Virus genome (UHGV): UHGV-0142770
Source of the DNA: a virus
DNA: 39,194 nt
Direction: 5' to 3' (one strand)
Shown: in pieces, positions 2,438 through 34,229 of the stretch
Position numbering within the stretch: position 1 is the stretch's first letter
Layout of the letters: the number at the start of each line of letters is the position of its first letter
Translations under genes and position numbers: made by a program
The notes under the pieces: generated by a model
The model's input: the letters and a program-made list of their open reading frames with translations, nothing else
Told to the model about the DNA's origin: nothing
Databases searched by the model: none

Positions 2438-4453
2438 TTACGCACTTCGTAATAAATGTTTAGACATAGCGGCAATACAGAAACAAGATAAGTCAGCGTA
2501 ATTTACACCATACATATCCGATTCTTTATCATAAGTAACCAGAGAATAGTCTGTAGGGTTAAGATTATATTTCTCCATAATCAGCATTACTTCTTGAGCC
2601 ATACATCCGAAGTGATACTTATCAGATTCTGCATCTGTCCATTTAAACTTTATCATGCTAATAGCTAATTCTAGCCCTGCACTATACTCTGCCGTAGATA
2701 TCTCATACACATCTTTACATCTACCGTCAGATGTTTGTATTACACCATTAGTTGCAAAGACAGTTTGCCATCTACGACTAGATTGACCACAAGTTCTTTG
2801 ATTATCTATCTGGGGGGCAACACTACCATCTATACGCAAATAGTTATCTTCCGCTTGTGCGCCTCCCATAACACCTTCTAAAAAAGGCAATCCTTTGTGA
2901 TTATTTACAATGAATTTATTGGAGGTATCTTCTGATATTCCGGTACCAGCATCTGGACCTATAAAAATATTACCATTTCCAGTTGGCAACTTTCTTCCTG
3001 CTCTTGCTCCTATCATAACATTCAGGTCACCTGAGGATAGGGAATTGAGGGCATCAACACCAATTGCTGTATTAAAATTACCTGTGAGAGTCCCAGTGTA
3101 TGGGTTCTCAGTTGATGATACTCCTCGCAATGCTCCATTACCTATAGCTGTGTTATGATCACCTTGCTTTAACTCCCTACCAGCTGCATTACCAATAAGG
3201 GTATTTCCATTACATTTATTATACCCAAGACGTACACCTTGAGGGTCTGTGTAGATGCCAGTACGCATTCCTGCAGAGCGTCCTATTGCAACATTAGCTT
3301 CTCCAGAATGGAGTTGCTGCAAAGCTGACATACCAACTGCAACATTGAACCTACCATCCTTACACTCGTTTAGCGCATCCCTGCCAATACCAATCATGTT
3401 ATTTCCAGTGGTGGCTTTCTTCAAAGCATTAATACCTATACTGATAATCTCTGTTCCAGAAAATGGCGACTTATCTGTAAGATCATCTTCTAGAGTATCT
3501 CCTGACAAACCACCCACACCAACCACGATTGTGTTAGTGCCGCTAGTTATGTTGCGACCAGAACTTGGTCCAAGCAAAACCAATTGATTACCTTTACCAG
3601 AGTCAGTGTAATTTTTTGCGGCATCATAACCTAAAATAAGGTTGCTATGAGACTGAGCTACATTGGTAAACGGAATTCGTTCCGCTCCTGTCTCTTTAAT
3701 TATTTTTCCTGGGCCATAAAATCTTCCATTAATATCTTCCGGCAATAAATACGTGCCATCAGGAACATAAACACCTTGTGGCGAAGCAGATGCCGCGGCA
3801 ATGAAAGCATCTGTATCATTTGTGACTCCATCACCTTTAGCGCCAAAGTCAAGAACACTGACAGTATCCCGCATCTTATCCTGAAACGTTCTATATACCG
3901 CGCCTGAACCATACTGAATAAACCAACCAAAACCACCAACAACTCCGGCGATTGCAGCATCGACATAATTACGCATTGAGCGATTATTTACAGCATCCTG
4001 CTCAAGTGATGGATCTGCAAGGTTAGAAATTCTGTTTTGCTTTGCATCGTAATATTTTGCAAGCAAAGATGGTTTCATCAATGCACGTCTGAACCACCCA
4101 AAACATTGCTGGATCAGCATCGTCAGGTAGTCAAAAGCATCTTCATGCACTTCGGGGAAAAATTTTCCCTGATTGCGAAGGTCTGTCTCCTGCACTACAT
4201 CAAGCACACGATCTATCGTAATTCGCCATCCAGCAGCAAGCGGAGACGGAAGAACAACAGAACCGCCACTATAAGTGCCCGCCCCAGTTACCGTATAACC
4301 GGTATCCAGAACCAATTCTGTTACGTTCCCGTTCAGGTCAGACACCTGAACAACCAGGTCTGATTTTTTGAAAATACGGAAGGTATACGGAAATGATGTC
4401 GTAACGCCGTTACCTGTGTATTCGTTGTGGTCAACTTCGGTTGAGACCGTCAT
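2438..4453 (-). CDS. Tail fibre/tailspike: T7 gp17-like N-terminal adaptor, pectate-lyase-like beta-helix, C-terminal intramolecular chaperone-like domain
   Basis: 671 aa. N-terminus (NEYTGNGVTTSFPYTFRIF...GWRITIDRV...) follows the T7 tail-fibre N-domain pattern; DFGAKGDGVTNDTDAF is a pectate-lyase-fold hallmark; Gly/Asn-rich repeats; C-terminus resembles endosialidase-type chaperone domains. 3' two-thirds is visibly AT-richer. Confidence 0.85.
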   Translation of the reverse strand: MTVSTEVDHNEYTGNGVTTSFPYTFRIFKKSDLVVQVSDLNGNVTELVLDTGYTVTGAGTYSGGSVVLPSPLAAGWRITIDRVLDVVQETDLRNQGKFFPEVHEDAFDYLTMLIQQCFGWFRRALMKPSLLAKYYDAKQNRISNLADPSLEQDAVNNRSMRNYVDAAIAGVVGGFGWFIQYGSGAVYRTFQDKMRDTVSVLDFGAKGDGVTNDTDAFIAAASASPQGVYVPDGTYLLPEDINGRFYGPGKIIKETGAERIPFTNVAQSHSNLILGYDAAKNYTDSGKGNQLVLLGPSSGRNITSGTNTIVVGVGGLSGDTLEDDLTDKSPFSGTEIISIGINALKKATTGNNMIGIGRDALNECKDGRFNVAVGMSALQQLHSGEANVAIGRSAGMRTGIYTDPQGVRLGYNKCNGNTLIGNAAGRELKQGDHNTAIGNGALRGVSSTENPYTGTLTGNFNTAIGVDALNSLSSGDLNVMIGARAGRKLPTGNGNIFIGPDAGTGISEDTSNKFIVNNHKGLPFLEGVMGGAQAEDNYLRIDGSVAPQIDNQRTCGQSSRRWQTVFATNGVIQTSDGRCKDVYEISTAEYSAGLELAISMIKFKWTDAESDKYHFGCMAQEVMLIMEKYNLNPTDYSLVTYDKESDMYGVNYADLSCFCIAAMSKHLLRSA

Positions 4454-4557
4454 GTTAAATCTCCAGATAGTCGCAGCACCCGTTGCGCCGCATATCTGGT
4501 TATTCTATTACCTGAAAAACCACATATGGATATAAAGACTGTGAATATGAATAGATA

Positions 4558-4572
4558 TTACCTTTCAGGTAA
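4558..4572. promoter_or_regulatory. Candidate repressor operator TTACCTTTCAGGTAA (TTACC-N5-GGTAA) in the divergent region between tail fibre and antirepressor operon
   Basis: Perfect 5-bp inverted arms with 5-bp spacer. The 16-mer ATTACCTTTCAGGTAA is identical to the site at 23446-23461. Confidence 0.5.
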
Positions 4573-4609
4573 TTTGCAAAACGTGCTGGATAGCAAACAA
4601 ATTATTTGA

Positions 4610-4629
4610 TACTGTATATTTATACAGTT
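4610..4629 (+). promoter_or_regulatory. LexA (SOS) box TACTGTATATTTATACAGTT upstream of the antirepressor operon
   Basis: CTGT at 4612-4615, 8-nt AT-rich spacer, ACAG at 4624-4627: matches the gamma-proteobacterial consensus CTGT-N8-ACAG. Sits about 20 nt upstream of the ATG at 4649. Confidence 0.8.
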
Positions 4630-4648
4630 ATTGCATGGAGAAGATAAG

Positions 4649-4906
4649 ATGCAGCAGTATCACTATCCACTGGAAGAGGGATTTACCGAAAGGATTCACA
4701 CGCCGGGAGGCGTCAGGTCACTGGTGGAGGGATCGCACTTGATGAAATTACTCCGGGATCTCGATAAGGATGGATTTAATGTCGATGGCCCACTTGCCGA
4801 ACTGACTGCACTGATTAACTACGTCACCAGCTCACAGATGTCTATGCAGGATCTGCAAACACATCTCGACTATTGTGCCGAACAATTACGAAAACAAACC
4901 AGATAA
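4649..4906 (+). CDS. Small protein homologous to the C-terminal domain of the downstream antirepressor; first gene of the LexA-controlled operon
   Basis: ATG 4649 with GGAG 8 nt upstream (track start 4631 is TTG). 85 aa. C-terminal ~60 aa aligns with the Ant C-terminus (DGFNVDGPLAELT...DLQTH vs DGHDVSGAAAELT...DIQTH). Confidence 0.6.
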   Translation: MQQYHYPLEEGFTERIHTPGGVRSLVEGSHLMKLLRDLDKDGFNVDGPLAELTALINYVTSSQMSMQDLQTHLDYCAEQLRKQTR

Positions 4907-4937
4907 GGTTTGTAATTACCAAATTGAGTGCTTATAT

Positions 4938-4952
4938 TTACCTTTGCGGTAA
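4938..4952. promoter_or_regulatory. Candidate repressor operator TTACCTTTGCGGTAA between the small ORF and ant
   Basis: Perfect TTACC-N5-GGTAA palindrome. Confidence 0.45.
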
Positions 4953-5045
4953 ATTTACATCGCACTCCTCTTGTGCCATAGTAATCGGGCACTGGCAAAA
5001 TCCAGTGCCGGGATTGGTCTCCCGGATTACTACAGAGGCACATAT

Positions 5046-5065
5046 GCCGCATAAGCGGTTTTTTT
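5046..5065 (+). terminator. Weak intrinsic terminator/attenuator between small ORF and ant
   Basis: Short GC stem (CCGC-ATAA-GCGG) followed by T7 run 5059-5065, preceded by two longer hairpins at 4988-5009 and 5008-5025. Confidence 0.4.
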
Positions 5066-5219
5066 ATGTGTAAAGCGCACCTATTCTATGGTGGGCTGTG
5101 TGGGGGCACCGAAAGGTGCGCCGGGTTCCTTTGTAGCCGGTAAGACCAACTCTGCACAGTTCACCACCATCTGATTGGTCTCAGCGGTGGTGATTAACCT
5201 AACTACAAAGGTGATCGCC

Positions 5220-5912
5220 ATGAATACCAAACCTTCCATCTTTTCCTTTGAGTCATCCTGCCAGATCCGTATGTTCATGATTGACGGAGAACCTTGGTTT
5301 GTCACCAAAGATGTGTGCAATGCTTTGAATATTGATGTTACACAAGCGAGAAAACTTGATAAAAAAGGCTGGAACAAAAAGGGGCTGTATTCAATACAGA
5401 CCCCTGGTGGAATACAAGAACTATCCATCGTTTCAGAATCAGGTCTCTACATCCTTATTCTGCGTTGCAAAGAGGCAATGACTGAGGGAACGAGAGCATT
5501 CAGATTTCTTGAATGGGTTACAGGCGAAGTACTTCCTCAGATCCGCCGCACCGGAAGTTACATTAAAAACTCGCTCCCGCAGGAAGAACGCATAAAGATG
5601 GTTGCCGACCAGGTAGCCAACGCCACGGCGTCAGCAGTAATGCAGGCGATGAAGATAGAGAACAAAACCTACAGTGCCCCACTGAAGCCCGGCTACCGCA
5701 GTCTGATTCATTCTCCGTCTGGTGTTCTCGGCCTGACGGAGAACTCACTGCTGATGAATCTGCTGAACCGGTTACAGGAAGACGGGCACGACGTATCGGG
5801 CGCGGCGGCGGAGCTGACCACCATGTTTTGCTACATCGTTGGTGTGAGCAAATGCCTGCGTGATATCCAGACACACGCGGAGTACATCAACGACAAAGCA
5901 GGGTTCTTCTGA
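5220..5912 (+). CDS. ant: Antirepressor (Bro-N domain, Ant-like)
   Basis: ATG 5220 with AAGGTGA 5 nt upstream. N-terminal FSFESSCQIRMFMIDGEPWFVTKDVCNALNI matches the Bro-N fold of prophage antirepressors. Downstream of a LexA box. Confidence 0.8.
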   Translation: MNTKPSIFSFESSCQIRMFMIDGEPWFVTKDVCNALNIDVTQARKLDKKGWNKKGLYSIQTPGGIQELSIVSESGLYILILRCKEAMTEGTRAFRFLEWVTGEVLPQIRRTGSYIKNSLPQEERIKMVADQVANATASAVMQAMKIENKTYSAPLKPGYRSLIHSPSGVLGLTENSLLMNLLNRLQEDGHDVSGAAAELTTMFCYIVGVSKCLRDIQTHAEYINDKAGFF

Positions 5913-6080
5913 CGGCGGCGGCACAGGGATGTGCCTTTAAATAATTCTGTACAGATTGCAGGTGAATAGCTTACTATTACCTCACGGGTGATCCATAGCG
6001 ATTAGGCACCGATACAGGAGGAGCCCACATGAGAAAATTTGACGAGTACGAAGGCGTTTAACATTCGGATAGTTTAATGA

Positions 6081-6102
6081 CGGGGCCATTAGGCCCCGTT
6101 TT
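6081..6102 (+). terminator. Intrinsic terminator downstream of ant and of a 10-codon mini-ORF
   Basis: Stem CGGGGCC 6081-6087, loop ATTA, stem GGCCCCG 6092-6098, then TTTT. Confidence 0.6.
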
Positions 6103-6120
6103 CATGTCTGGAGACAGTTT

Positions 6121-6660
6121 GTGTTAAGTGAAGAAATGCAATTTGCCATGGCTGTGGCTCAAATCGTAAGTGCAGTCGCGGTTTCGCTTGGCTTGTTCAT
6201 AGCTATCGCTACTATTATTTATAATGTAAATACAGCGAGAAAAGTACACACTTCAGTATTCCTTGGTGAAAGCAGGTTTGATGTAGATTATAAGAAAGGC
6301 CTATCTACTATGCGCCGCATTCACGAATCGAACAAATCATTCCGCTCTTATATGTATCCAAGCAATGGGCAGGCTGATCTTACGGATGAAGAAAAGACAG
6401 AGAAGAGAGAAATAATTTACTGTCTAGGTTTCTACGAACGCATGGCTGTGAGCGTGAAGCGGAAAACTTATGATGAGACCATGATTAAGGAAGTATTTTA
6501 CAGCTCCGTTGTAAATAACTATCAGATTGCGCTACCTCTTATACAAGCCATTAGAGAAAAAGAAAACATAAACACATATTTTAAAGAATATGAATGGTTG
6601 GCCACACGATGGAAGGATTGCCCATTGAAGGATAAATCCCCGTGGTACAAGTTTTGGTAA
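6121..6660 (+). CDS. AT-rich moron: membrane-anchored protein of unknown function (candidate exclusion/defence or conversion gene)
   Basis: 179 aa; GTG start 6121 with GGAGA 6 nt upstream (alternative ATG 6136). One N-terminal TM helix (AVAQIVSAVAVSLGLFIAIATIIY), Lys/Glu-rich body. Own terminator; AT-richer than flanks by eye. Confidence 0.6.
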   Translation: MLSEEMQFAMAVAQIVSAVAVSLGLFIAIATIIYNVNTARKVHTSVFLGESRFDVDYKKGLSTMRRIHESNKSFRSYMYPSNGQADLTDEEKTEKREIIYCLGFYERMAVSVKRKTYDETMIKEVFYSSVVNNYQIALPLIQAIREKENINTYFKEYEWLATRWKDCPLKDKSPWYKFW

Positions 6661-6682
6661 GCCAGCGCTGCGGGCTTTTTTT
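6660..6682 (+). terminator. Intrinsic terminator after the membrane moron gene
   Basis: GC-rich imperfect stem (AGCCAGCGCTGCGGGCT) followed by T7 run 6676-6682, immediately after stop 6658-6660. Confidence 0.6.
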
Positions 6683-6754
6683 GTGGACGAAACAAAAGTC
6701 AGTGCTACACTCATTGACGCCACATTGAGGTGGCTTATAGATGGAAATTTCACA

Positions 6755-6916
6755 ATGAAAAAAGCATTTGCTGCACTGTTCGTTTTGTTGTCTCTGGTAG
6801 CTTCAACTCAGGCCTTTGCCGGTCGTTGTCAGCACGACAGCGATACTGCCGCTGACGGCTCCCGCTGCGGTGGGCGTTCTGCGGATTCCCGCCCGGGTGG
6901 CGGTGGCATTCGTTAA
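6755..6916 (+). CDS. Small secreted Gly/Cys-containing peptide (hypothetical)
   Basis: Internal ATG 6755 gives MKKAFAALFVLLSLVASTQAFA (signal peptide with AFA cleavage motif) plus a ~31-aa mature part with two Cys and a poly-Gly tail. Short and unrecognised, so tentative. Confidence 0.35.
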   Translation: MKKAFAALFVLLSLVASTQAFAGRCQHDSDTAADGSRCGGRSADSRPGGGGIR

Positions 6917-6939
6917 AAACAAGGCCGCGAAAGCGGCCT
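6915..6939 (-). terminator. Intrinsic terminator ending the minus-strand virion operon (after the lipoprotein gene)
   Basis: 7-bp stem AGGCCGC/GCGGCCT with GAAA tetraloop (6922-6939); on the minus strand a U-run follows (A-run 6915-6920 on +). Confidence 0.6.
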
Positions 6940-6954
6940 GTGACATGTCACGAC

Positions 6955-7368
6955 TTATAAAGATGACTGATATTTTACAACTCTGTTCATGGCATCTTTT
7001 TTCACCGAGCTGATATCAGTTCTTATTTTGGCTTCGTCATTACTGCTTATCATGCTATTAATTTTTTGCACTGACATGCCGTTTCTTTCAGCCATTGCAC
7101 ATACAGCAGCATCGTATGAAGAACTCGCTGCGATGGATATCACCTTGTTACACTCAAACACAGCACCTTCAGCAATATCAGATGCCGATGAGGCTGGCTT
7201 GGTATAAGTCTTGACGTAGTGATCAATACAACTATCCTTCGCCGTCTTGGCAAGAGAAAAATCCATTTTAACTTTGTCGCAATATGCCTTATCAACACCG
7301 TCATAAACATCATAGGATGTCGAGCAAGCGGATATCAAAAATACCGATAACAGCAATAATTCCTTCAT
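6955..7368 (-). CDS. Lipoprotein, last gene of the virion operon (candidate superinfection-exclusion factor)
   Basis: 137 aa; N-terminus MKELLLLSVFLISAC has signal peptide plus lipobox (ISAC); AT-rich; four further Cys. Confidence 0.6.
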   Translation of the reverse strand: MKELLLLSVFLISACSTSYDVYDGVDKAYCDKVKMDFSLAKTAKDSCIDHYVKTYTKPASSASDIAEGAVFECNKVISIAASSSYDAAVCAMAERNGMSVQKINSMISSNDEAKIRTDISSVKKDAMNRVVKYQSSL

Positions 7369-7377
7369 TGTTGTTCC

Positions 7378-19412: not shown

Positions 19413-19463
19413 CTTCTTTCTCCATTAGTGGGTCTGTTACGACCCACAGGTTAATAACAGGCG

Positions 19464-23783: not shown

Positions 23784-23860
23784 GTGGCATTAGCTCAGTT
23801 GGACAGAGCAACCGCCTTCTAAGCGGTTGGTCGCAGGTTCGAATCCTGCATGCCACGCCA
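23784..23860 (+). tRNA. tRNA-Arg (anticodon UCU), phage-encoded
   Basis: 77 nt cloverleaf folded by hand: acceptor GTGGCAT/ATGCCAC, D-arm GCTC...GAGC, anticodon stem ACCGC/GCGGT with loop CTTCTAA (TCT at 23818-23820), T-arm GCAGG-TTCGAAT-CCTGC, discriminator G and encoded CCA. Closely resembles enterobacterial argU. Confidence 0.9.
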
Positions 23861-23946: not shown

Positions 23947-24023
23947 CAGCAGGACGCCATTGCGATGACTTCATGCTGTAAACCCGTACAGCCACGGAAG
24001 GCATAACTCATTGCTTCCAGTTC

Positions 24024-31944: not shown

Positions 31945-32759
31945 GCTTCAGGGCTGTTCCAGTGCGGAACGTTGTTATCAGGTAATGTTGATTGCTTCTG
32001 TCTGCTAATCTGCAGCCGCCTTGCCAGCTTCTGCTCCCACTGCGCCTGATGGTATGCCTTACCCTCAGCCATCCAGTAAATTCTGAACTCTGCAAGTTCC
32101 TGTGCCGTTGGCAGACTGTCCAGGTAGATCCCCTGCAATGAGCTTTTCCGAAGAAAGTCATCTGATGGTTGCCATTGTTCATGCATGACAAATTTGCCTA
32201 ATTGCCCTGGCCCACCAGGAGGAACAAAGTTATTCATCACGGCGTTGTTTGCGCCGGGGTCATGAGGCACAGAATCCCCGCTTTTTGTCCTGCTCTCCCT
32301 CTCTTGGTTAAATGACTGGTTATATGACTGGTTCTGGATCCCGTTTTTGGGATCATTCAACATCCCGTTTTTGGGATCATTCAACATCCCGTTTTTGGGT
32401 ATATTCCCGTTTTCGGTAACATTACCGTTTTCGGTAACATTACCGTTTTCGGGTTCATTACCCCCTTCCCGGTTGCCTTTAATGTTCCCGTTTTTGGTTA
32501 TATTAAGAGAGAAAACCCGCACTCTTTTCGTCGCTCCCTTTCTCTCTCCGGTATCTGAAATAAGCCCCATTTTCATGAGCGATATAAGCCCGGCCTGCAC
32601 GGTTTTTTTATTCAGACAAGTGTCTTTAACGAGGCGTTCTATGCTGGGGTAGCAGAGGTTATATTCATCGGCTCTGTCAGCCATCGAGAGCAGTATGAGC
32701 TTTAATGACGAGCTACCTGGATCTGTCTCCCAGGCCCAATCTGTTGCATGTCTGCTCAT
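31926..32759 (-). CDS. Replication initiator O-like protein with iteron-encoded repeat region
   Basis: 277 aa; N-terminal winged-helix-like region (LKLILLSMADRADEYNLCYPSIERLVKDT...); central NGNVTENGN... repeats are encoded by DNA iterons; followed by the P-like gene with overlap. Confidence 0.75.
   Translation of the reverse strand: MSRHATDWAWETDPGSSSLKLILLSMADRADEYNLCYPSIERLVKDTCLNKKTVQAGLISLMKMGLISDTGERKGATKRVRVFSLNITKNGNIKGNREGGNEPENGNVTENGNVTENGNIPKNGMLNDPKNGMLNDPKNGIQNQSYNQSFNQERESRTKSGDSVPHDPGANNAVMNNFVPPGGPGQLGKFVMHEQWQPSDDFLRKSSLQGIYLDSLPTAQELAEFRIYWMAEGKAYHQAQWEQKLARRLQISRQKQSTLPDNNVPHWNSPEAWEDFL
32338..32505. repeat. Replication origin iterons inside the O-like gene
   Basis: ATCCCGTTTTTGGGATCATTCAAC at 32338-32361 repeats exactly at 32362-32385 with a third partial copy; then CCCGTTTTCGGTAACATTA-type copies at 32406, 32425, 32443 and 32487. 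Seven CCGTTTT(T/C)GG cores with 18-24 bp period. Confidence 0.7.
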
Positions 32760-33125: not shown

Positions 33126-33356
33126 TCATGAGTAGAAGAAGTATGCCAGTTCCGCTTTTGAGCGCAGCCATTGTCTTGTTTTACAGGCTTTAAAAAGCCC
33201 ATTCATCAATACCTTACCTGGCATTTTGCGCTTACCTGTTAAGTGAGTCTGGATATAGTGACTCGTCGTTCCGGCTTCCTGTGCGAAGGCTTCACGCTCA
33301 TCCGGAGTAAGTGCAAGCCAGTGCTTTTTGAAATCGAAATGTCCGTTATCGCTCAT
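33126..33356 (-). CDS. Cro/YdaS-like HTH regulator
   Basis: 76 aa, first gene of the rightward operon, divergent from the CI-like gene; HTH-like segment AFAQEAGTTSHYIQTHLTGKRK. Confidence 0.6.
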   Translation of the reverse strand: MSDNGHFDFKKHWLALTPDEREAFAQEAGTTSHYIQTHLTGKRKMPGKVLMNGLFKACKTRQWLRSKAELAYFFYS

Positions 33357-33388: not shown

Positions 33389-33417
33389 ATATTCACCCAT
33401 AAGGTAACAAAAATCAA
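33389..33417 (-). promoter_or_regulatory. Candidate pR-like promoter for the cro-like gene
   Basis: On the minus strand TTGATT (33417-33412), 17-bp spacer, GAATAT (33394-33389), about 30 nt upstream of cro ATG 33356. Confidence 0.35.
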
Positions 33418-33440
33418 GGATAGTTACCTATGAGGTGCAT

Positions 33441-33455
33441 TTACCTGTTGGGTAA
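33441..33455. promoter_or_regulatory. Candidate repressor operator TTACCTGTTGGGTAA in the cro/CI divergent region
   Basis: Perfect palindrome; an imperfect copy (TTACCTATGAGGTGC, 33424-33438) lies 2 bp away, giving tandem sites 17 bp centre-to-centre. Confidence 0.5.
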
Positions 33456-33510: not shown

Positions 33511-34095
33511 ATGAAAAGTATCCAGGACGTCCGCAGGCAAAATCTCAACGACTTGATCGACCGTGAATTCAATGGTGTTCAGACGCGGATGGCAGAAAAA
33601 CTTGGAACTCAGGCAAATCTGGTAAACCGCTGGGCTCTTGGCAAGAAGGTTATCGGCGACCAGGTTGCGCGAAAAATTGAAGCTGCCGCCAATAAACCCC
33701 GTAACTGGCTTGATATCGATCGCTCGCTTTCTCAGGAAGGTTTTCAGCCTGTCGGCCCAAGCGACATTGGTCAGCTGGCAGCTCACAACCTGGAACGCTG
33801 GATGAGTGAAAGCCGCGACCTTTCAACTCAGGGAAAACTTCACCGCGCATCCGGCGTCGCCCAGGTGACAATAAGCCGCCTGTTAAACAATGAGGTCAGC
33901 GTTTCCATTTCCACCCTGGAGAATGTTGCATCTGCATTCGGGCGTCACGGATATGAACTACTGATCCATCCGCATGACCCTGCAACTATCAACTATGACC
34001 GCTCGCGCTACGCATTGTTACCTGAAACAGAGAAGGCAAAGATCGAAAGTTACATTGAATTTGTCATCAACCAGAACGAAAAAAACAAACAATAA
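33511..34095 (+). CDS. CI-like repressor, non-cleavable type (XRE HTH, no S24 peptidase motifs)
   Basis: 194 aa; N-terminal HTH (VQTRMAEKLGTQANLVNRWALGKK) like lambdoid repressors; C-terminal half lacks the Ser/Lys autopeptidase signature; divergent from cro and followed by a terminator. Confidence 0.65.
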   Translation: MKSIQDVRRQNLNDLIDREFNGVQTRMAEKLGTQANLVNRWALGKKVIGDQVARKIEAAANKPRNWLDIDRSLSQEGFQPVGPSDIGQLAAHNLERWMSESRDLSTQGKLHRASGVAQVTISRLLNNEVSVSISTLENVASAFGRHGYELLIHPHDPATINYDRSRYALLPETEKAKIESYIEFVINQNEKNKQ

Positions 34096-34152: not shown

Positions 34153-34167
34153 TTACCTAACAGGTAA
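34153..34167. promoter_or_regulatory. Candidate repressor operator TTACCTAACAGGTAA (OL-like, upstream of -35)
   Basis: Perfect palindrome 20 bp upstream of TTGACA at 34187-34192. Confidence 0.5.
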
Positions 34168-34186
34168 TTTTTTTAACTCATATCTA

Positions 34187-34229
34187 TTGACATCAAACCA
34201 GATACGCATAATTATTACCTCAACGGTAA
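34187..34229 (+). promoter_or_regulatory. pL-like early promoter with overlapping operator (TTGACA-N17-AATTAT then TTACCTCAACGGTAA)
   Basis: -35 TTGACA 34187-34192, 17-bp spacer, -10-like AATTAT 34210-34215, perfect operator at 34215-34229 spanning the predicted start site; drives the plus-strand operon. Confidence 0.5.

What the first reader, a model, noticed from the sequence alone, without database searches (positions are those of the whole stretch)
4558..5912. SOS-controlled antirepressor operon paired with a non-cleavable CI-like repressor
A consensus LexA box (CTGT-N8-ACAG, 4612-4627) sits directly upstream of a two-gene operon ending in a Bro-N antirepressor. The CI-like repressor (33511-34095) has no S24 autopeptidase domain. 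Together this predicts induction by LexA derepression of Ant rather than RecA-stimulated repressor cleavage. A TTACC-N5-GGTAA operator (4558-4572) lies about 40 bp upstream of the LexA box, suggesting dual control by LexA and the phage repressor.
Basis: partly seen in the sequence, partly recalled or inferred. Interest (0 to 1): 0.8.

Follow-up and report, generated by a model that had tools for sequence, protein, structure and literature searches.

The report
Known SOS antirepressor switch, plus RNA-gated second antirepressor

Summary
The LexA box at 4610-4629 matches the consensus at 18 of 20 positions (0 expected by chance). TTACC-N5-GGTAA occurs 14 times against 0.8 expected. The repressor has no S24 domain.

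The switch is not new. The 85-aa ORF directly behind the LexA box (4649-4906) is the homologue of SPC32H Ant (PDB 5D50_E, E=1.6e-47). The "CI-like" protein is the homologue of SPC32H Rep (5D50_A, E=4e-42) and is 100% identical to the phiV10/ZX5 repressor. The palindrome is the repressor site already annotated in the epsilon15 GenBank record.

That gap holds:
- an isrK sRNA with its own promoter, an abutting Rep operator and a terminator (4989-5065);
- a C4 antisense RNA (5084-5171) whose loop pairs with the Bro-N gene's ribosome-binding site. This pairing co-varies across eight phage lineages.

The C-terminus of the Bro-N protein is itself an Ant-like domain (E=1.6e-13 to 5D50_E). It is therefore probably a second, RNA-gated antirepressor, of the P1 immI / Gifsy-1 isrK-anrP type.

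Verdict: an ordinary new member of known systems. The juxtaposition of the two modules is mildly interesting.

The parts
4558..4572 (.). Rep operator palindrome TTACCTTTCAGGTAA, in the divergent region between the tail-fibre gene (start 4453, minus strand) and ant1
   Evidence: Exact match to a motif that is 18-fold over-represented in the window. The homologous site is conserved in phiV10, ZX5, SPC32H, epsilon15 and a Klebsiella relative, and is annotated as a repressor-binding site in epsilon15. Which promoter it controls is not resolved.
4587..4615 (+). Putative ant1 promoter: -35 TGGATA (4587-4592), 17-nt spacer, -10 TACTGT (4610-4615)
   Evidence: This is my inference. Both hexamers fall in blocks that are conserved across six Uetakeviruses. 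The consensus scan did not call this promoter.
4610..4629 (.). LexA (SOS) box TACTGTATATTTATACAGTT; core CTGT-N8-ACAG at 4612-4627
   Evidence: 18 of 20 matches to consensus, unique in the window, 0 in shuffles. Conserved in six relatives. The SPC32H/SPC32N pair differs by ACAG to AAAG in the aligned box.
4649..4906 (+). ant1: small antirepressor, 85 aa, homologue of SPC32H Ant; Shine-Dalgarno GGAG at 4638-4641
   Evidence: PDB 5D50_E 'Anti-repressor protein', E=1.6e-47 over residues 2-84. 89% identical to the annotated ant of SPC32H. PHROG phrog_450.
4938..4952 (.). Second Rep operator TTACCTTTGCGGTAA, abutting the -35 of the isrK promoter
   Evidence: Exact motif. Conserved in phiV10 and ZX5. 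Absent from the homologous isrK promoters of Gifsy-1 and VT2-Sakai.
4954..4982 (+). isrK promoter: TTTACA, 17-nt spacer, CATAGT, with TG before the -10
   Evidence: Called by the promoter scan. It aligns with the TTGACA...TATATT promoter region of Gifsy-1 isrK. The predicted start, about 4989, is the first position of the Rfam isrK match.
4989..5065 (+). isrK sRNA (equivalent to the a1/b1 target region of the C4 system), ending in a rho-independent terminator (5046-5065). The linker CUACAGAGG at 5030-5038 is complementary to the C4 loop.
   Evidence: Rfam RF01394, 74.7 bits against a gathering score of 50. Terminator. Complementarity. RF03163 'c4-a1b1' overlaps isrK in relatives.
5084..5171 (+). 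C4 antisense RNA; antisense loop CCUUUGUAG at 5128-5136
   Evidence: Rfam RF01695, 78.6 bits against a gathering score of 45, full length. The loop, the target and the isrK linker co-vary in eight specificity classes.
5203..5211 (+). C4 target CUACAAAGG, overlapping the Shine-Dalgarno sequence of ant2
   Evidence: A 9-nt perfect complement of the C4 loop, 9 nt upstream of the ATG. The same site co-varies with the loop in relatives.
5220..5912 (+). ant2: 230-aa two-domain protein. Bro-N domain at residues 16-106 (5265-5537). Ant-like domain at residues 149-225 (5664-5894).
   Evidence: Pfam Bro-N, E=1.7e-13. The C-terminus is 42% identical to ant1 (E=1e-19) and hits 5D50_E at E=1.6e-13. PHROG phrog_130 'anti-repressor Ant'. 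81% identical to ZX5 ORF4, whose overexpression lowered lysogeny (PMC9782041).
5977..5991 (.). Operator-like site TTACCTCACGGGTGA (one mismatch), downstream of ant2 and upstream of the DUF4760 gene
   Evidence: Function untested.
33511..34095 (+). rep: non-cleavable repressor, 194 aa, homologue of SPC32H Rep
   Evidence: PDB 5D50_A 'Repressor', E=4e-42, full length. No S24 domain. 100% identical to the phiV10/ZX5 repressor.
33393..33455 (.). OR-like operator pair (33393-33407 with one mismatch; 33441-33455 exact), between rep and the divergent cro-like gene (33126-33356, minus strand)
   Evidence: Equivalent to the epsilon15 sites at 33341/33358.
34153..34229 (.). OL-like operator pair (34153-34167 and 34215-34229), downstream of rep at the head of the recombination operon
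   Evidence: Equivalent to the annotated epsilon15 sites at 32479-32632.

Best explanation
The window is a Uetakevirus (epsilon15/phiV10-like) prophage of E. coli. Its lysis-lysogeny switch is of the SPC32H type.

**Tier 1, the published switch.** Rep (33511-34095) has no autopeptidase domain and holds lysogeny by binding TTACC-N5-GGTAA operators. These lie beside its own gene and at the heads of several other transcription units. LexA sits on the SOS box (4610-4629) over the ant1 promoter. DNA damage removes LexA, the 85-aa Ant1 (4649-4906) is made, and Ant1 binds Rep and strips it from DNA. This is shown experimentally in SPC32H and inferred here by homology.

**Tier 2, an accessory module.** Downstream of ant1, E. 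coli members of the genus have acquired a module of the P1 immI / Gifsy-1 isrK-anrP type. It runs as follows:
- a promoter with a Rep operator abutting its -35;
- isrK, with a leaky terminator;
- C4 antisense RNA;
- ant2.

The C4 loop pairs with the ant2 Shine-Dalgarno sequence and blocks translation. The isrK linker carries a mimic of that target. Ant2 is a Bro-N protein whose C-terminal domain is homologous to Ant1, so it is most likely a second antirepressor of the same Rep. It would be made only when Rep repression, the terminator and the C4 lock are all relieved. That role, as a reinforcement or anti-immunity device, is inferred.
For: **Rep and Ant1.** Ant1 matches 5D50_E at E=1.6e-47 and Rep matches 5D50_A at E=4e-42. 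SPC32H GenBank annotates these genes as ant and rep.

**LexA box.** It is unique in the window and conserved at the same position in six phages. The SPC32N variant differs from SPC32H by ACAG to AAAG in that box.

**Operators.** The motif is 18-fold enriched, flanks rep, and is identical to the annotated epsilon15 repressor sites.

**No S24 domain**.

**Literature.**
- LexA-controlled Ant in Salmonella prophages, citing Kim and Ryu 2013: PMC7380047.
- Rep tetramer disassembled by Ant tetramer: PMC9638917.
- ZX5, with the identical Rep, is induced by mitomycin C; Rep overexpression blocks lytic growth and ORF4 (Ant2-type) overexpression lowers lysogeny: PMC9782041.

**RNA module.**
- isrK and C4 both score above the Rfam gathering thresholds.
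- The terminator was called by the scan.
- Loop, Shine-Dalgarno site and isrK linker co-vary three ways in eight specificities.
- The read-through RNA folds with z=-5.2.
- The Gifsy-1 homologous locus is experimentally characterised: PMC4825925.

**Ant2.** Its C-terminus matches Ant. In the phage database the Ant domain occurs in 35 records, including both forms, and the 36 full-length Rep matches are the same group of Escherichia, Salmonella, Klebsiella and Enterobacter phages.
Against: - Nothing here was tested biochemically on this element. LexA binding, Ant1-Rep binding and Ant2-Rep binding all rest on homology.
- Window Rep is only about 42% identical to SPC32H Rep, while Ant1 is 89% identical to SPC32H Ant. 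Cognate binding is therefore assumed, not shown.
- The ant1 promoter hexamers could not be called by the consensus scan.
- The ZX5 overexpression data come from a GST fusion and the effects are modest.
- phiV10 carries a frameshifted ant2, and PAS61 and YDC107_2 match none of the module sequence downstream of ant1. Ant2 is therefore dispensable for the phage life cycle.
- The orf45-type translational coupling shown in Gifsy-1 is not conserved here.
Confidence: 0.8

Rival explanations
1. One LexA-repressed promoter drives a two-gene operon, and the Bro-N protein is the antirepressor that inactivates the CI-like repressor. The small first ORF is an accessory gene.
For: No terminator lies between the ant1 stop (4906) and isrK, so SOS transcripts do enter the downstream module. 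In Gifsy-1 part of the transcripts read through the isrK terminator (PMC4825925). The Bro-N protein carries an Ant-like domain. ZX5 ORF4 overexpression reduced lysogeny.
Against: The small ORF is the structurally and genetically characterised antirepressor. SPC32H and epsilon15 use the same LexA box with ant alone and no Bro-N gene. A promoter, a terminator and an antisense RNA aimed at the Bro-N ribosome-binding site separate the two genes. phiV10 has a frameshifted Bro-N gene.
Confidence: 0.08
2. Ant2 does not act on Rep. Its Bro-N domain makes it a DNA-binding or host-directed regulator, like Gifsy-1 AnrP, which switches on antQ. Alternatively its Ant-like domain co-assembles with Ant1 tetramers and modulates or poisons them, acting as an anti-antirepressor or a timer.
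For: Bro-N domains are generic and occur in many proteins of unknown role. AnrP acts through antQ expression in Gifsy-1. SPC32H Ant is a tetramer (PMC9638917), so hetero-oligomers of the two paralogous domains are conceivable. ant2 is dispensable in relatives.
Against: In the phage database the Ant-like domain occurs only in the group of phages that carry a Rep homologue, whereas isrK-C4 and Bro-N modules are widespread elsewhere. This points to Rep as the partner. ZX5 ORF4 overexpression pushed the phage towards lysis, not lysogeny.
Confidence: 0.12
3. The operator at 4558-4572 has nothing to do with ant1. It represses a leftward promoter for the tail-fibre gene, TTGCAA (4579-4574), 16-nt spacer, TATCTA (4557-4552). 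This would be in keeping with Rep operators at the heads of the structural and lysis operons in this genus.
For: The palindrome fills the spacer of that leftward promoter-like sequence (sequence; my reading). Other operators sit at the heads of the terminase, portal and early operons. The site ends about 14 bp upstream of the likely ant1 -35, which is not a classical repression position.
Against: The leftward hexamers are weak, are not conserved in the Klebsiella relative, and were not called by the scan. A Rep tetramer could still affect the ant1 promoter through UP-element occlusion, or by looping to the operator at 4938-4952, which is 380 bp away.
Confidence: 0.4

Closest known systems
Salmonella phage SPC32H Rep/Ant switch (Kim and Ryu 2013, J Virol 87:11775; Kim et al. 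2016, PNAS 113:E2480; PDB 5D50, 5D4Z)
   Same: Same phage genus and the same gene position, between the tailspike gene and the upstream structural gene. Ant1 is 89% identical to SPC32H Ant. The Rep homologue matches full length and lacks an S24 domain. The LexA box is in the same place, the TTACC-N5-GGTAA operator core is the same, and an operator sits about 40 bp upstream of the LexA box.
   Different: Rep is only about 42% identical. In SPC32H, ant is followed directly by the next gene, with no isrK, C4 or Bro-N gene. Here ant1 has no terminator of its own and runs into isrK.
Gifsy-1 isrK-orf45-anrP locus (Hershko-Shalev et al. 2016, PMC4825925)
   Same: The order isrK, then C4 (probably their STnc1160), then an antirepressor-type gene is the same. 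The promoter and terminator positions align. The isrK linker is complementary to the C4 loop. The read-through RNA can fold with isrK paired to the C4 region.
   Different: The downstream protein is unrelated apart from its role (23% identity). The orf45 stop/start overlap is absent here: the uORF is 28 aa and ends 45 nt before ant2. A Rep operator abuts the promoter here but not in Gifsy-1. There is no antQ or isrJ neighbour.
Phage P1/P7 immI (c4 antisense RNA, icd, ant), and the P4 CI RNA with seqA/seqC
   Same: There is a C4-family RNA (RF01695). Its loop is complementary to one site upstream (a1/b1, here isrK) and one site at the ribosome-binding site of the downstream gene. The module ends in an antirepressor. 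The primary repressor has an operator at the module's promoter, as C1 has at Op51 in P1; this last point is from my own knowledge of the P1 literature.
   Different: There is no icd homologue. The antirepressor is a Bro-N::Ant-like fusion, not P1 Ant1/2. Here the target overlaps the antirepressor's own Shine-Dalgarno sequence rather than that of an upstream coupled ORF.
Other LexA-controlled antirepressors: coliphage 186 Tum, N15 AntC, Gifsy GfoA/GftA (PMC3121763)
   Same: The logic is the same: a non-cleavable repressor, and an antirepressor gene outside the immunity region under direct LexA control. N15 additionally has a separate antirepressor locus controlled by a small processed RNA (immA), so it too combines both kinds of control.
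   Different: I found no sequence relationship to Ant1; this was not tested beyond the Pfam, PHROG and PDB searches. In N15 the two antirepressor systems sit at separate loci and use unrelated proteins. Here they are adjacent and share a homologous domain.
Lambda/P22 CI-type repressors with an S24 autopeptidase domain
   Same: A divergent rep/cro-like arrangement with operators on both sides of rep.
   Different: No S24 domain. The operator is a single 15-bp palindrome type that is also dispersed to late-gene operons.

Membership tests
SPC32H-type Rep/Ant SOS switch | Small (about 86 aa) Ant protein homologous to SPC32H Ant | tested here: met
   5D50_E, E=1.6e-47, residues 2-84 aligned to 3-85. 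89% identity to the KC911856 ant gene.
SPC32H-type Rep/Ant SOS switch | Two-domain Rep homologue without an autocleavage (S24) domain | tested here: met
   5D50_A, E=4e-42 over residues 1-190. Pfam finds HTH families only.
SPC32H-type Rep/Ant SOS switch | LexA box at the ant promoter | tested here: met
   18 of 20 matches to consensus at 4610-4629, 20 nt upstream of the ant1 ATG. It aligns with the SPC32H box that carries the SPC32N point difference.
SPC32H-type Rep/Ant SOS switch | LexA actually binds the box and represses ant; Ant binds Rep and releases it from DNA | not testable with these tools
   Needs EMSA or ChIP, reporter fusions and pull-downs. Inferred from homology only.
SPC32H-type Rep/Ant SOS switch | Family operator TTACC-N5-GGTAA flanking rep | tested here: met
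   Sites at 33393/33441 and 34153/34215. The core is the same as at the annotated epsilon15 sites and at the matching positions in SPC32H.
C4 antisense RNA / P1 immI-type antirepressor control | RNA matching the C4 covariance model | tested here: met
   RF01695, 78.6 bits against a gathering score of 45, model positions 1-87 of 87.
C4 antisense RNA / P1 immI-type antirepressor control | C4 loop complementary to a site at the translation start of the downstream gene and to an upstream copy (a1/b1) | tested here: met
   Loop 5128-5136 against 5203-5211 (perfect 9 nt) and against 5030-5038 (9 nt with one G:U pair). All three elements change together in eight lineages.
C4 antisense RNA / P1 immI-type antirepressor control | icd-like or orf45-like upstream ORF translationally coupled to the antirepressor | tested here: not met
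   The uORF from the conserved AUG at 5088 is 28 aa and stops 45 nt before the ant2 ATG. Its length and frame vary among relatives.
C4 antisense RNA / P1 immI-type antirepressor control | C4 is processed from the read-through transcript and blocks translation or causes termination | not testable with these tools
   Needs Northern blots, RNA-seq and mutagenesis.
isrK sRNA (Gifsy-1 type) | isrK covariance-model match with its own promoter and a rho-independent terminator | tested here: met
   RF01394, 74.7 bits against a gathering score of 50. Promoter at 4954-4982 and terminator at 5046-5059 followed by a T-run. Both align with Gifsy-1.
Bro-N family antirepressors | Bro-N domain | tested here: met
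   PF02498, E=1.7e-13, residues 16-106. PHROG phrog_130 'anti-repressor Ant', E=1.1e-50. The family name does not prove the function.
Lambda-type CI / LexA-like S24 repressors | C-terminal Peptidase_S24 domain with a cleavage site | tested here: not met
   No S24 hit in Pfam at E up to 0.01. The C-terminal half aligns instead to the SPC32H Rep 92-198 domain (5D4Z_A, E=4.1e-20).

The most novel reading that the evidence does not exclude
In E. coli Uetakeviruses the SOS trigger and the RNA-gated antirepressor may be wired in series as a commitment latch.

1. ant1 has no terminator of its own, so LexA-derepressed transcripts should end at the isrK terminator and carry the IsrK sequence as their 3' end.
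2. That sequence contains the decoy for the C4 loop. In Gifsy-1, IsrK supplied in trans activates translation of the downstream antirepressor more than 100-fold.
3. Ant1 also inactivates Rep, which would open the Rep-operated isrK promoter.
4. Both routes would release Ant2, a Bro-N fusion carrying the same Rep-binding domain. Ant2 would then lock Rep off, or act in trans on co-resident related prophages.

If so, a single locus would integrate LexA, the phage repressor and an antisense RNA, using two paralogous antirepressor domains.
Probability: 0.3. Interest if true: 0.5.

Novelty: new member of a known kind. Interest (0 to 1): 0.3.

Why it matters
**Annotation.** The characterised SPC32H-type Ant is still labelled 'hypothetical protein' in phiV10, TL-2011b, ZX5 and the listed E. 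coli prophage records, and 'unknown function' in PHROGs (phrog_450). Meanwhile the neighbouring Bro-N gene gets the antirepressor label. The ZX5 study tested only the Bro-N protein. The two sRNA genes are not annotated in phiV10, TL-2011b or ZX5, or are mis-called as small ORFs such as 'Ash family protein'.

**Prevalence.** About 10% of complete E. coli genomes (543 of 5426) carry at least part of this locus. Predicting which prophages respond to SOS-inducing antibiotics therefore depends on getting the gene assignment right.

**Biology.** There is no new principle here. The adjacent pairing of a LexA-gated and an RNA-gated antirepressor that share one repressor-binding domain is a compact natural system. 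It could be used to ask why phages keep two routes to the same repressor.

Tried and rejected
- **Primary papers not available.** I tried to read Kim and Ryu 2013 (PMC3807360), Kim et al. 2016 (PMC4983836) and Kropinski et al. 2007 (PMC2698709). None is held. Details of the SPC32H experiments therefore rest on citing papers, the GenBank and PDB records, and my memory of the abstracts.
- **ant1 promoter.** The consensus promoter scan did not call an ant1 promoter. My assignment, TGGATA-17-TACTGT, rests only on conservation.
- **orf45 coupling.** I looked for an orf45-like ORF coupled to ant2, as in Gifsy-1. It is not conserved, so I did not import that part of the Gifsy-1 mechanism.
- **Operator specificity.** I asked whether operator sequence co-varies with repressor type as a test of who binds it. 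It does not help: the TTACC-N5-GGTAA core is the same in epsilon15, SPC32H and this window even though their Reps are only about 42% identical.
- **Family and defence searches.** NCBIfam found nothing for Ant1, Ant2 or the DUF4760 protein, and only a far sub-threshold RstR-family hit for Rep (19.7 bits against a cutoff of 80). PADLOC found nothing for Ant2, the DUF4760 protein or the two other flanking ORFs.
- **Lambda-type repressor rejected.** There is no S24 domain.
- **Other LexA-like matches.** The CTGT-N8-ACAG matches at 19434 and 23976 were set aside as chance (GC-rich spacers).
- **Not run.** Structure prediction and the large protein-database searches were not run, because sequence matches to PDB 5D50 were already decisive.
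Full report
**What the window is.** The region 4454-6120 is 91-98% identical to E. coli phages of the genus Uetakevirus: phiV10, TL-2011b, vB_EcoP_ZX5 and EC.W1-9. At least part of it occurs in 543 of 5426 complete E. coli genomes, almost always on the chromosome. The gene order across the window matches epsilon15 and SPC32H: structural genes on the minus strand, a tRNA-Arg, a replication module, a repressor with a divergent cro-like gene, and a recombination module.

**Checking the observation.**
- The SOS box is TACTGTATATTTATACAGTT at 4610-4629. It matches the LexA consensus at 18 of 20 positions. It is the only such site in 39 kb at up to three mismatches, with none found in 100 shuffles.
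- TTACCTTTCAGGTAA lies at 4558-4572, 39 bp upstream. The pattern TTACC-N5-GGTAA has 9 exact and 5 one-mismatch copies, against 0.78 expected.
- The ORFs at 4649-4906 and 5220-5912 exist, and the second has a Bro-N domain.
- The 194-aa protein at 33511-34095 has helix-turn-helix domains and no S24 peptidase domain.

**Identity of the switch.**
- It matches PDB 5D50 chain E, 'Anti-repressor protein', at E=1.6e-47 across its whole length. It is 89% identical to the gene annotated ant in Salmonella phage SPC32H.
- The 'CI-like' protein matches 5D50 chain A, 'Repressor', at E=4e-42 across its whole length. It is 100% identical to the repressor of phiV10 and ZX5.
- The SPC32H pair is published. A review states that in several Salmonella prophages an antirepressor is made after LexA self-cleavage and inhibits the repressor by protein-protein interaction, citing Kim and Ryu 2013 (PMC7380047). 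Another paper summarises the structural work: Rep binds DNA as a tetramer, and a tetrameric Ant binds two Rep dimers and breaks the tetramer (PMC9638917).
- I could not obtain the two primary papers.
- As an independent check from sequence, SPC32H and its variant SPC32N differ at two positions in this region. One of them changes ACAG to AAAG in the LexA box that aligns with the window's box. From my memory of the Kim and Ryu abstract, that variant makes Ant constitutively and grows lytically.
- The box is conserved at the same distance from the ant start codon in phiV10, ZX5, SPC32H, epsilon15 and a Klebsiella relative.

**The operator.**
- The palindrome is the operator of this phage group. 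The epsilon15 GenBank record annotates seven 'repressor / lysogeny' binding sites, and all have the core TTACC-N5-GGTAA. One lies between gp19 (the ant homologue) and the tailspike gene. SPC32H has the same core at the same places.
- In the window the sites flank rep (33393/33441 and 34153/34215). They also precede the terminase, portal and early operons.
- Whether the 4558-4572 site controls ant1 is not settled. Two conserved blocks suggest an ant1 promoter: TGGATA (4587-4592), 17 nt, TACTGT (4610-4615). On that reading the LexA box lies over the -10 and the start site, and the operator ends about 14 bp upstream of the -35.
- The same palindrome also fills the spacer of a weak leftward promoter-like sequence facing the tail-fibre gene. 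Both readings are my inference from the sequence and alignment. The scan tool called neither promoter.

**What lies between the two ORFs.** The 313-bp gap is not empty.
- Rfam finds isrK at 4989-5065 (74.7 bits against a gathering score of 50) and C4 antisense RNA at 5084-5171 (78.6 bits against 45), both full length.
- isrK has a promoter-like sequence: TTTACA, 17 nt, CATAGT, at 4954-4982. Its predicted start coincides with the first isrK position. isrK ends in a GC hairpin and U-run at 5046-5065.
- A second exact operator (4938-4952) abuts the -35. It is conserved in phiV10 and ZX5, but absent from the aligned isrK promoters of Gifsy-1 and VT2-Sakai.

**How C4 is likely to act.**
- The 12-nt loop of C4 contains CCUUUGUAG (5128-5136). 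This is a perfect complement of CUACAAAGG (5203-5211), which overlaps the Shine-Dalgarno sequence of the Bro-N gene.
- With one G:U pair, the loop is also complementary to CUACAGAGG (5030-5038) in the single-stranded linker of isrK.
- The three-way relationship holds in every relative examined, although the sequence itself differs: CCUUUUAG in phiV10, ZX5 and TL-2011b; CGGUGAU in Gifsy-1; GGUUUC in VT2-Sakai; CUCUUGCGA in a Hafnia phage; CCUUGUUAG in APSE-1; CCUUGAUCA in SfV; UUGAGUAG in IdasGreatGrand.
- Such compensatory change is strong evidence that the pairing is functional.
- The tandem isrK-C4 unit occurs in 225 phage records, typically upstream of antirepressor-type genes. Rfam's 'a1, b1 targets of C4' model overlaps isrK in three of them.
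- The module is therefore of the P1 immI type. Its Gifsy-1 version (isrK-orf45-anrP) has been dissected experimentally (PMC4825925). Part of the isrK transcripts read through the terminator. The long RNA is translationally silent. Short IsrK supplied in trans activates translation. AnrP induces the prophage.
- The window's read-through RNA folds well below shuffled controls (z=-5.2), with the isrK linker paired to the C4 loop. This resembles the Gifsy-1 inactive conformer.
- The orf45 coupling is not conserved here. The uORF from the conserved AUG is 28 codons and stops 45 nt before the Bro-N start.

**What the Bro-N protein is.**
- Residues 149-225 are 42% identical to Ant1 (E=1e-19) and match 5D50_E at E=1.6e-13. 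The protein is a fusion of a Bro-N domain and an Ant-like domain.
- In the phage database the Ant domain, in either form, occurs in 35 records. The 36 full-length Rep matches are the same group of Escherichia, Salmonella, Klebsiella and Enterobacter phages. Bro-N domains and isrK-C4 units are far more widespread. The C-terminal domain is therefore the part that goes with this repressor.
- ZX5 has the identical Rep, and its ORF4 is 81% identical overall and nearly identical in the Ant-like domain. In that phage, overexpressing Rep stopped lytic growth, overexpressing ORF4 lowered the lysogen count about 1000-fold, and mitomycin C raised the titre to 10^9 (PMC9782041).
- The module is dispensable. 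SPC32H and epsilon15 lack it, phiV10 has a frameshift within the Ant-like domain, and PAS61 and YDC107_2 match none of the sequence downstream of ant1.

**Most likely mechanism.**
- Rep maintains lysogeny, and LexA keeps ant1 off.
- DNA damage removes LexA. Ant1 is made and inactivates Rep. This much is the known SPC32H switch, transferred by strong homology.
- Ant2 is held by three locks: a Rep operator at the isrK promoter, the isrK terminator, and C4 pairing with its ribosome-binding site.
- Ant2 is probably a second antirepressor of the same Rep. It would serve either to reinforce induction once Rep starts to fail or as a P1-like anti-immunity function. That part is inference.
- No terminator separates ant1 from isrK. 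SOS transcripts should therefore end at the isrK terminator and carry the C4 decoy, which could link the two tiers. I rate that at about 0.3.

**Comparison with known systems, and novelty.**
- The core is a member of the SPC32H Rep/Ant family. All sequence-testable defining features are met.
- The downstream module is a member of the C4/isrK antirepressor-control family, with every feature met except the coupled upstream ORF.
- LexA-controlled antirepressors are also known in 186, N15 and the Gifsy phages (PMC3121763).
- N15 likewise has both an RNA-controlled and a LexA-controlled antirepressor, though at separate loci (PMC4488713).
- My literature searches found no description of the adjacent arrangement with two paralogous Ant domains. 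It is still a combination of known parts, not a new principle.

**Verdict.** Novelty is low: a new member of known kinds. Interest is 0.3.

Noticed in passing
window 4649-4906; phiV10 PhiV10p24, TL-2011b gp47, ZX5 QZE12053: The experimentally characterised SPC32H-type Ant is annotated 'hypothetical protein' in phiV10, TL-2011b, ZX5 and the listed RefSeq prophage records. It falls in PHROG phrog_450, 'unknown function'. The neighbouring Bro-N gene gets the antirepressor label instead.
   Followed up: yes
L001 (phiV10) 3266-3945: phiV10 gp23, the 'putative anti-immunity protein', is identical to ZX5 ORF4 up to the start of the Ant-like domain and then goes out of frame. The remainder is annotated as the 30-aa PhiV10p22. 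This is either a natural pseudogene or a sequencing error.
   Followed up: partly
window 23447, 24063, 26965/26983, 31030/31092, 33056: Rep operators also sit at the heads of the portal, terminase and several early or accessory transcription units, as in epsilon15. The repressor may therefore shut off late operons directly rather than through a cascade, which is a P1 C1-like strategy.
   Followed up: partly
window 4501-4531: An invariant block, ATTCTATTACC...AAACC..ATATG.AT, lies in the leader of the tail-fibre/tailspike gene and is conserved from E. coli to Klebsiella relatives. It contains an operator half-site. It may be the tail-fibre promoter or an mRNA leader element.
   Followed up: no
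window 5913-7377: An accessory island lies between ant2 and the structural genes. It holds a one-mismatch operator-like site at 5977-5991, a DUF4760 protein (6121-6660; Pfam E=8e-31), a 77-aa ORF, and a 137-aa protein with a lipoprotein-like N-terminus on the minus strand (6955-7368; phrog_8691). None hit PADLOC. This slot differs between relatives: TL-2011b has a YafO-family toxin there.
   Followed up: partly
L014 (TL-2011b) 1667-2755 and 4664-5296; HEMP4: TL-2011b has an insertion of about 0.9 kb between ant1 and isrK, so the two modules are separable. In TL-2011b and HEMP4 the Ant query matches a third place besides ant1 and the Bro-N gene. In TL-2011b a further gene annotated 'anti-repressor Ant' (gp42) lies about 1.2 kb downstream of the Bro-N gene.
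   Followed up: no
L002 (ZX5) 2150-2263; L010 (Hafnia yong2) 788-1471; L012 (SfV) orf37: Protein-coding annotations ('Ash family protein', 'immunity region') are laid over the C4 RNA. The conserved AUG in the C4 5' stem opens uORFs of variable length and frame, some of them fused to the downstream gene.
   Followed up: partly
window 23784-23860: A phage-borne tRNA-Arg (anticodon TCT), as in SPC32H. The non-AT-rich CTGT-N8-ACAG match at 23976-23991 nearby is probably chance.
   Followed up: no
Rep versus Ant1 across the genus: Ant1 is 85-89% identical between the E. coli and Salmonella phages, while their Reps are only about 42% identical and yet keep the same operator core. This hints at a conserved Ant-binding surface, or at cross-reactivity between heteroimmune relatives, as in the Gifsy antirepressor crosstalk.
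   Followed up: no
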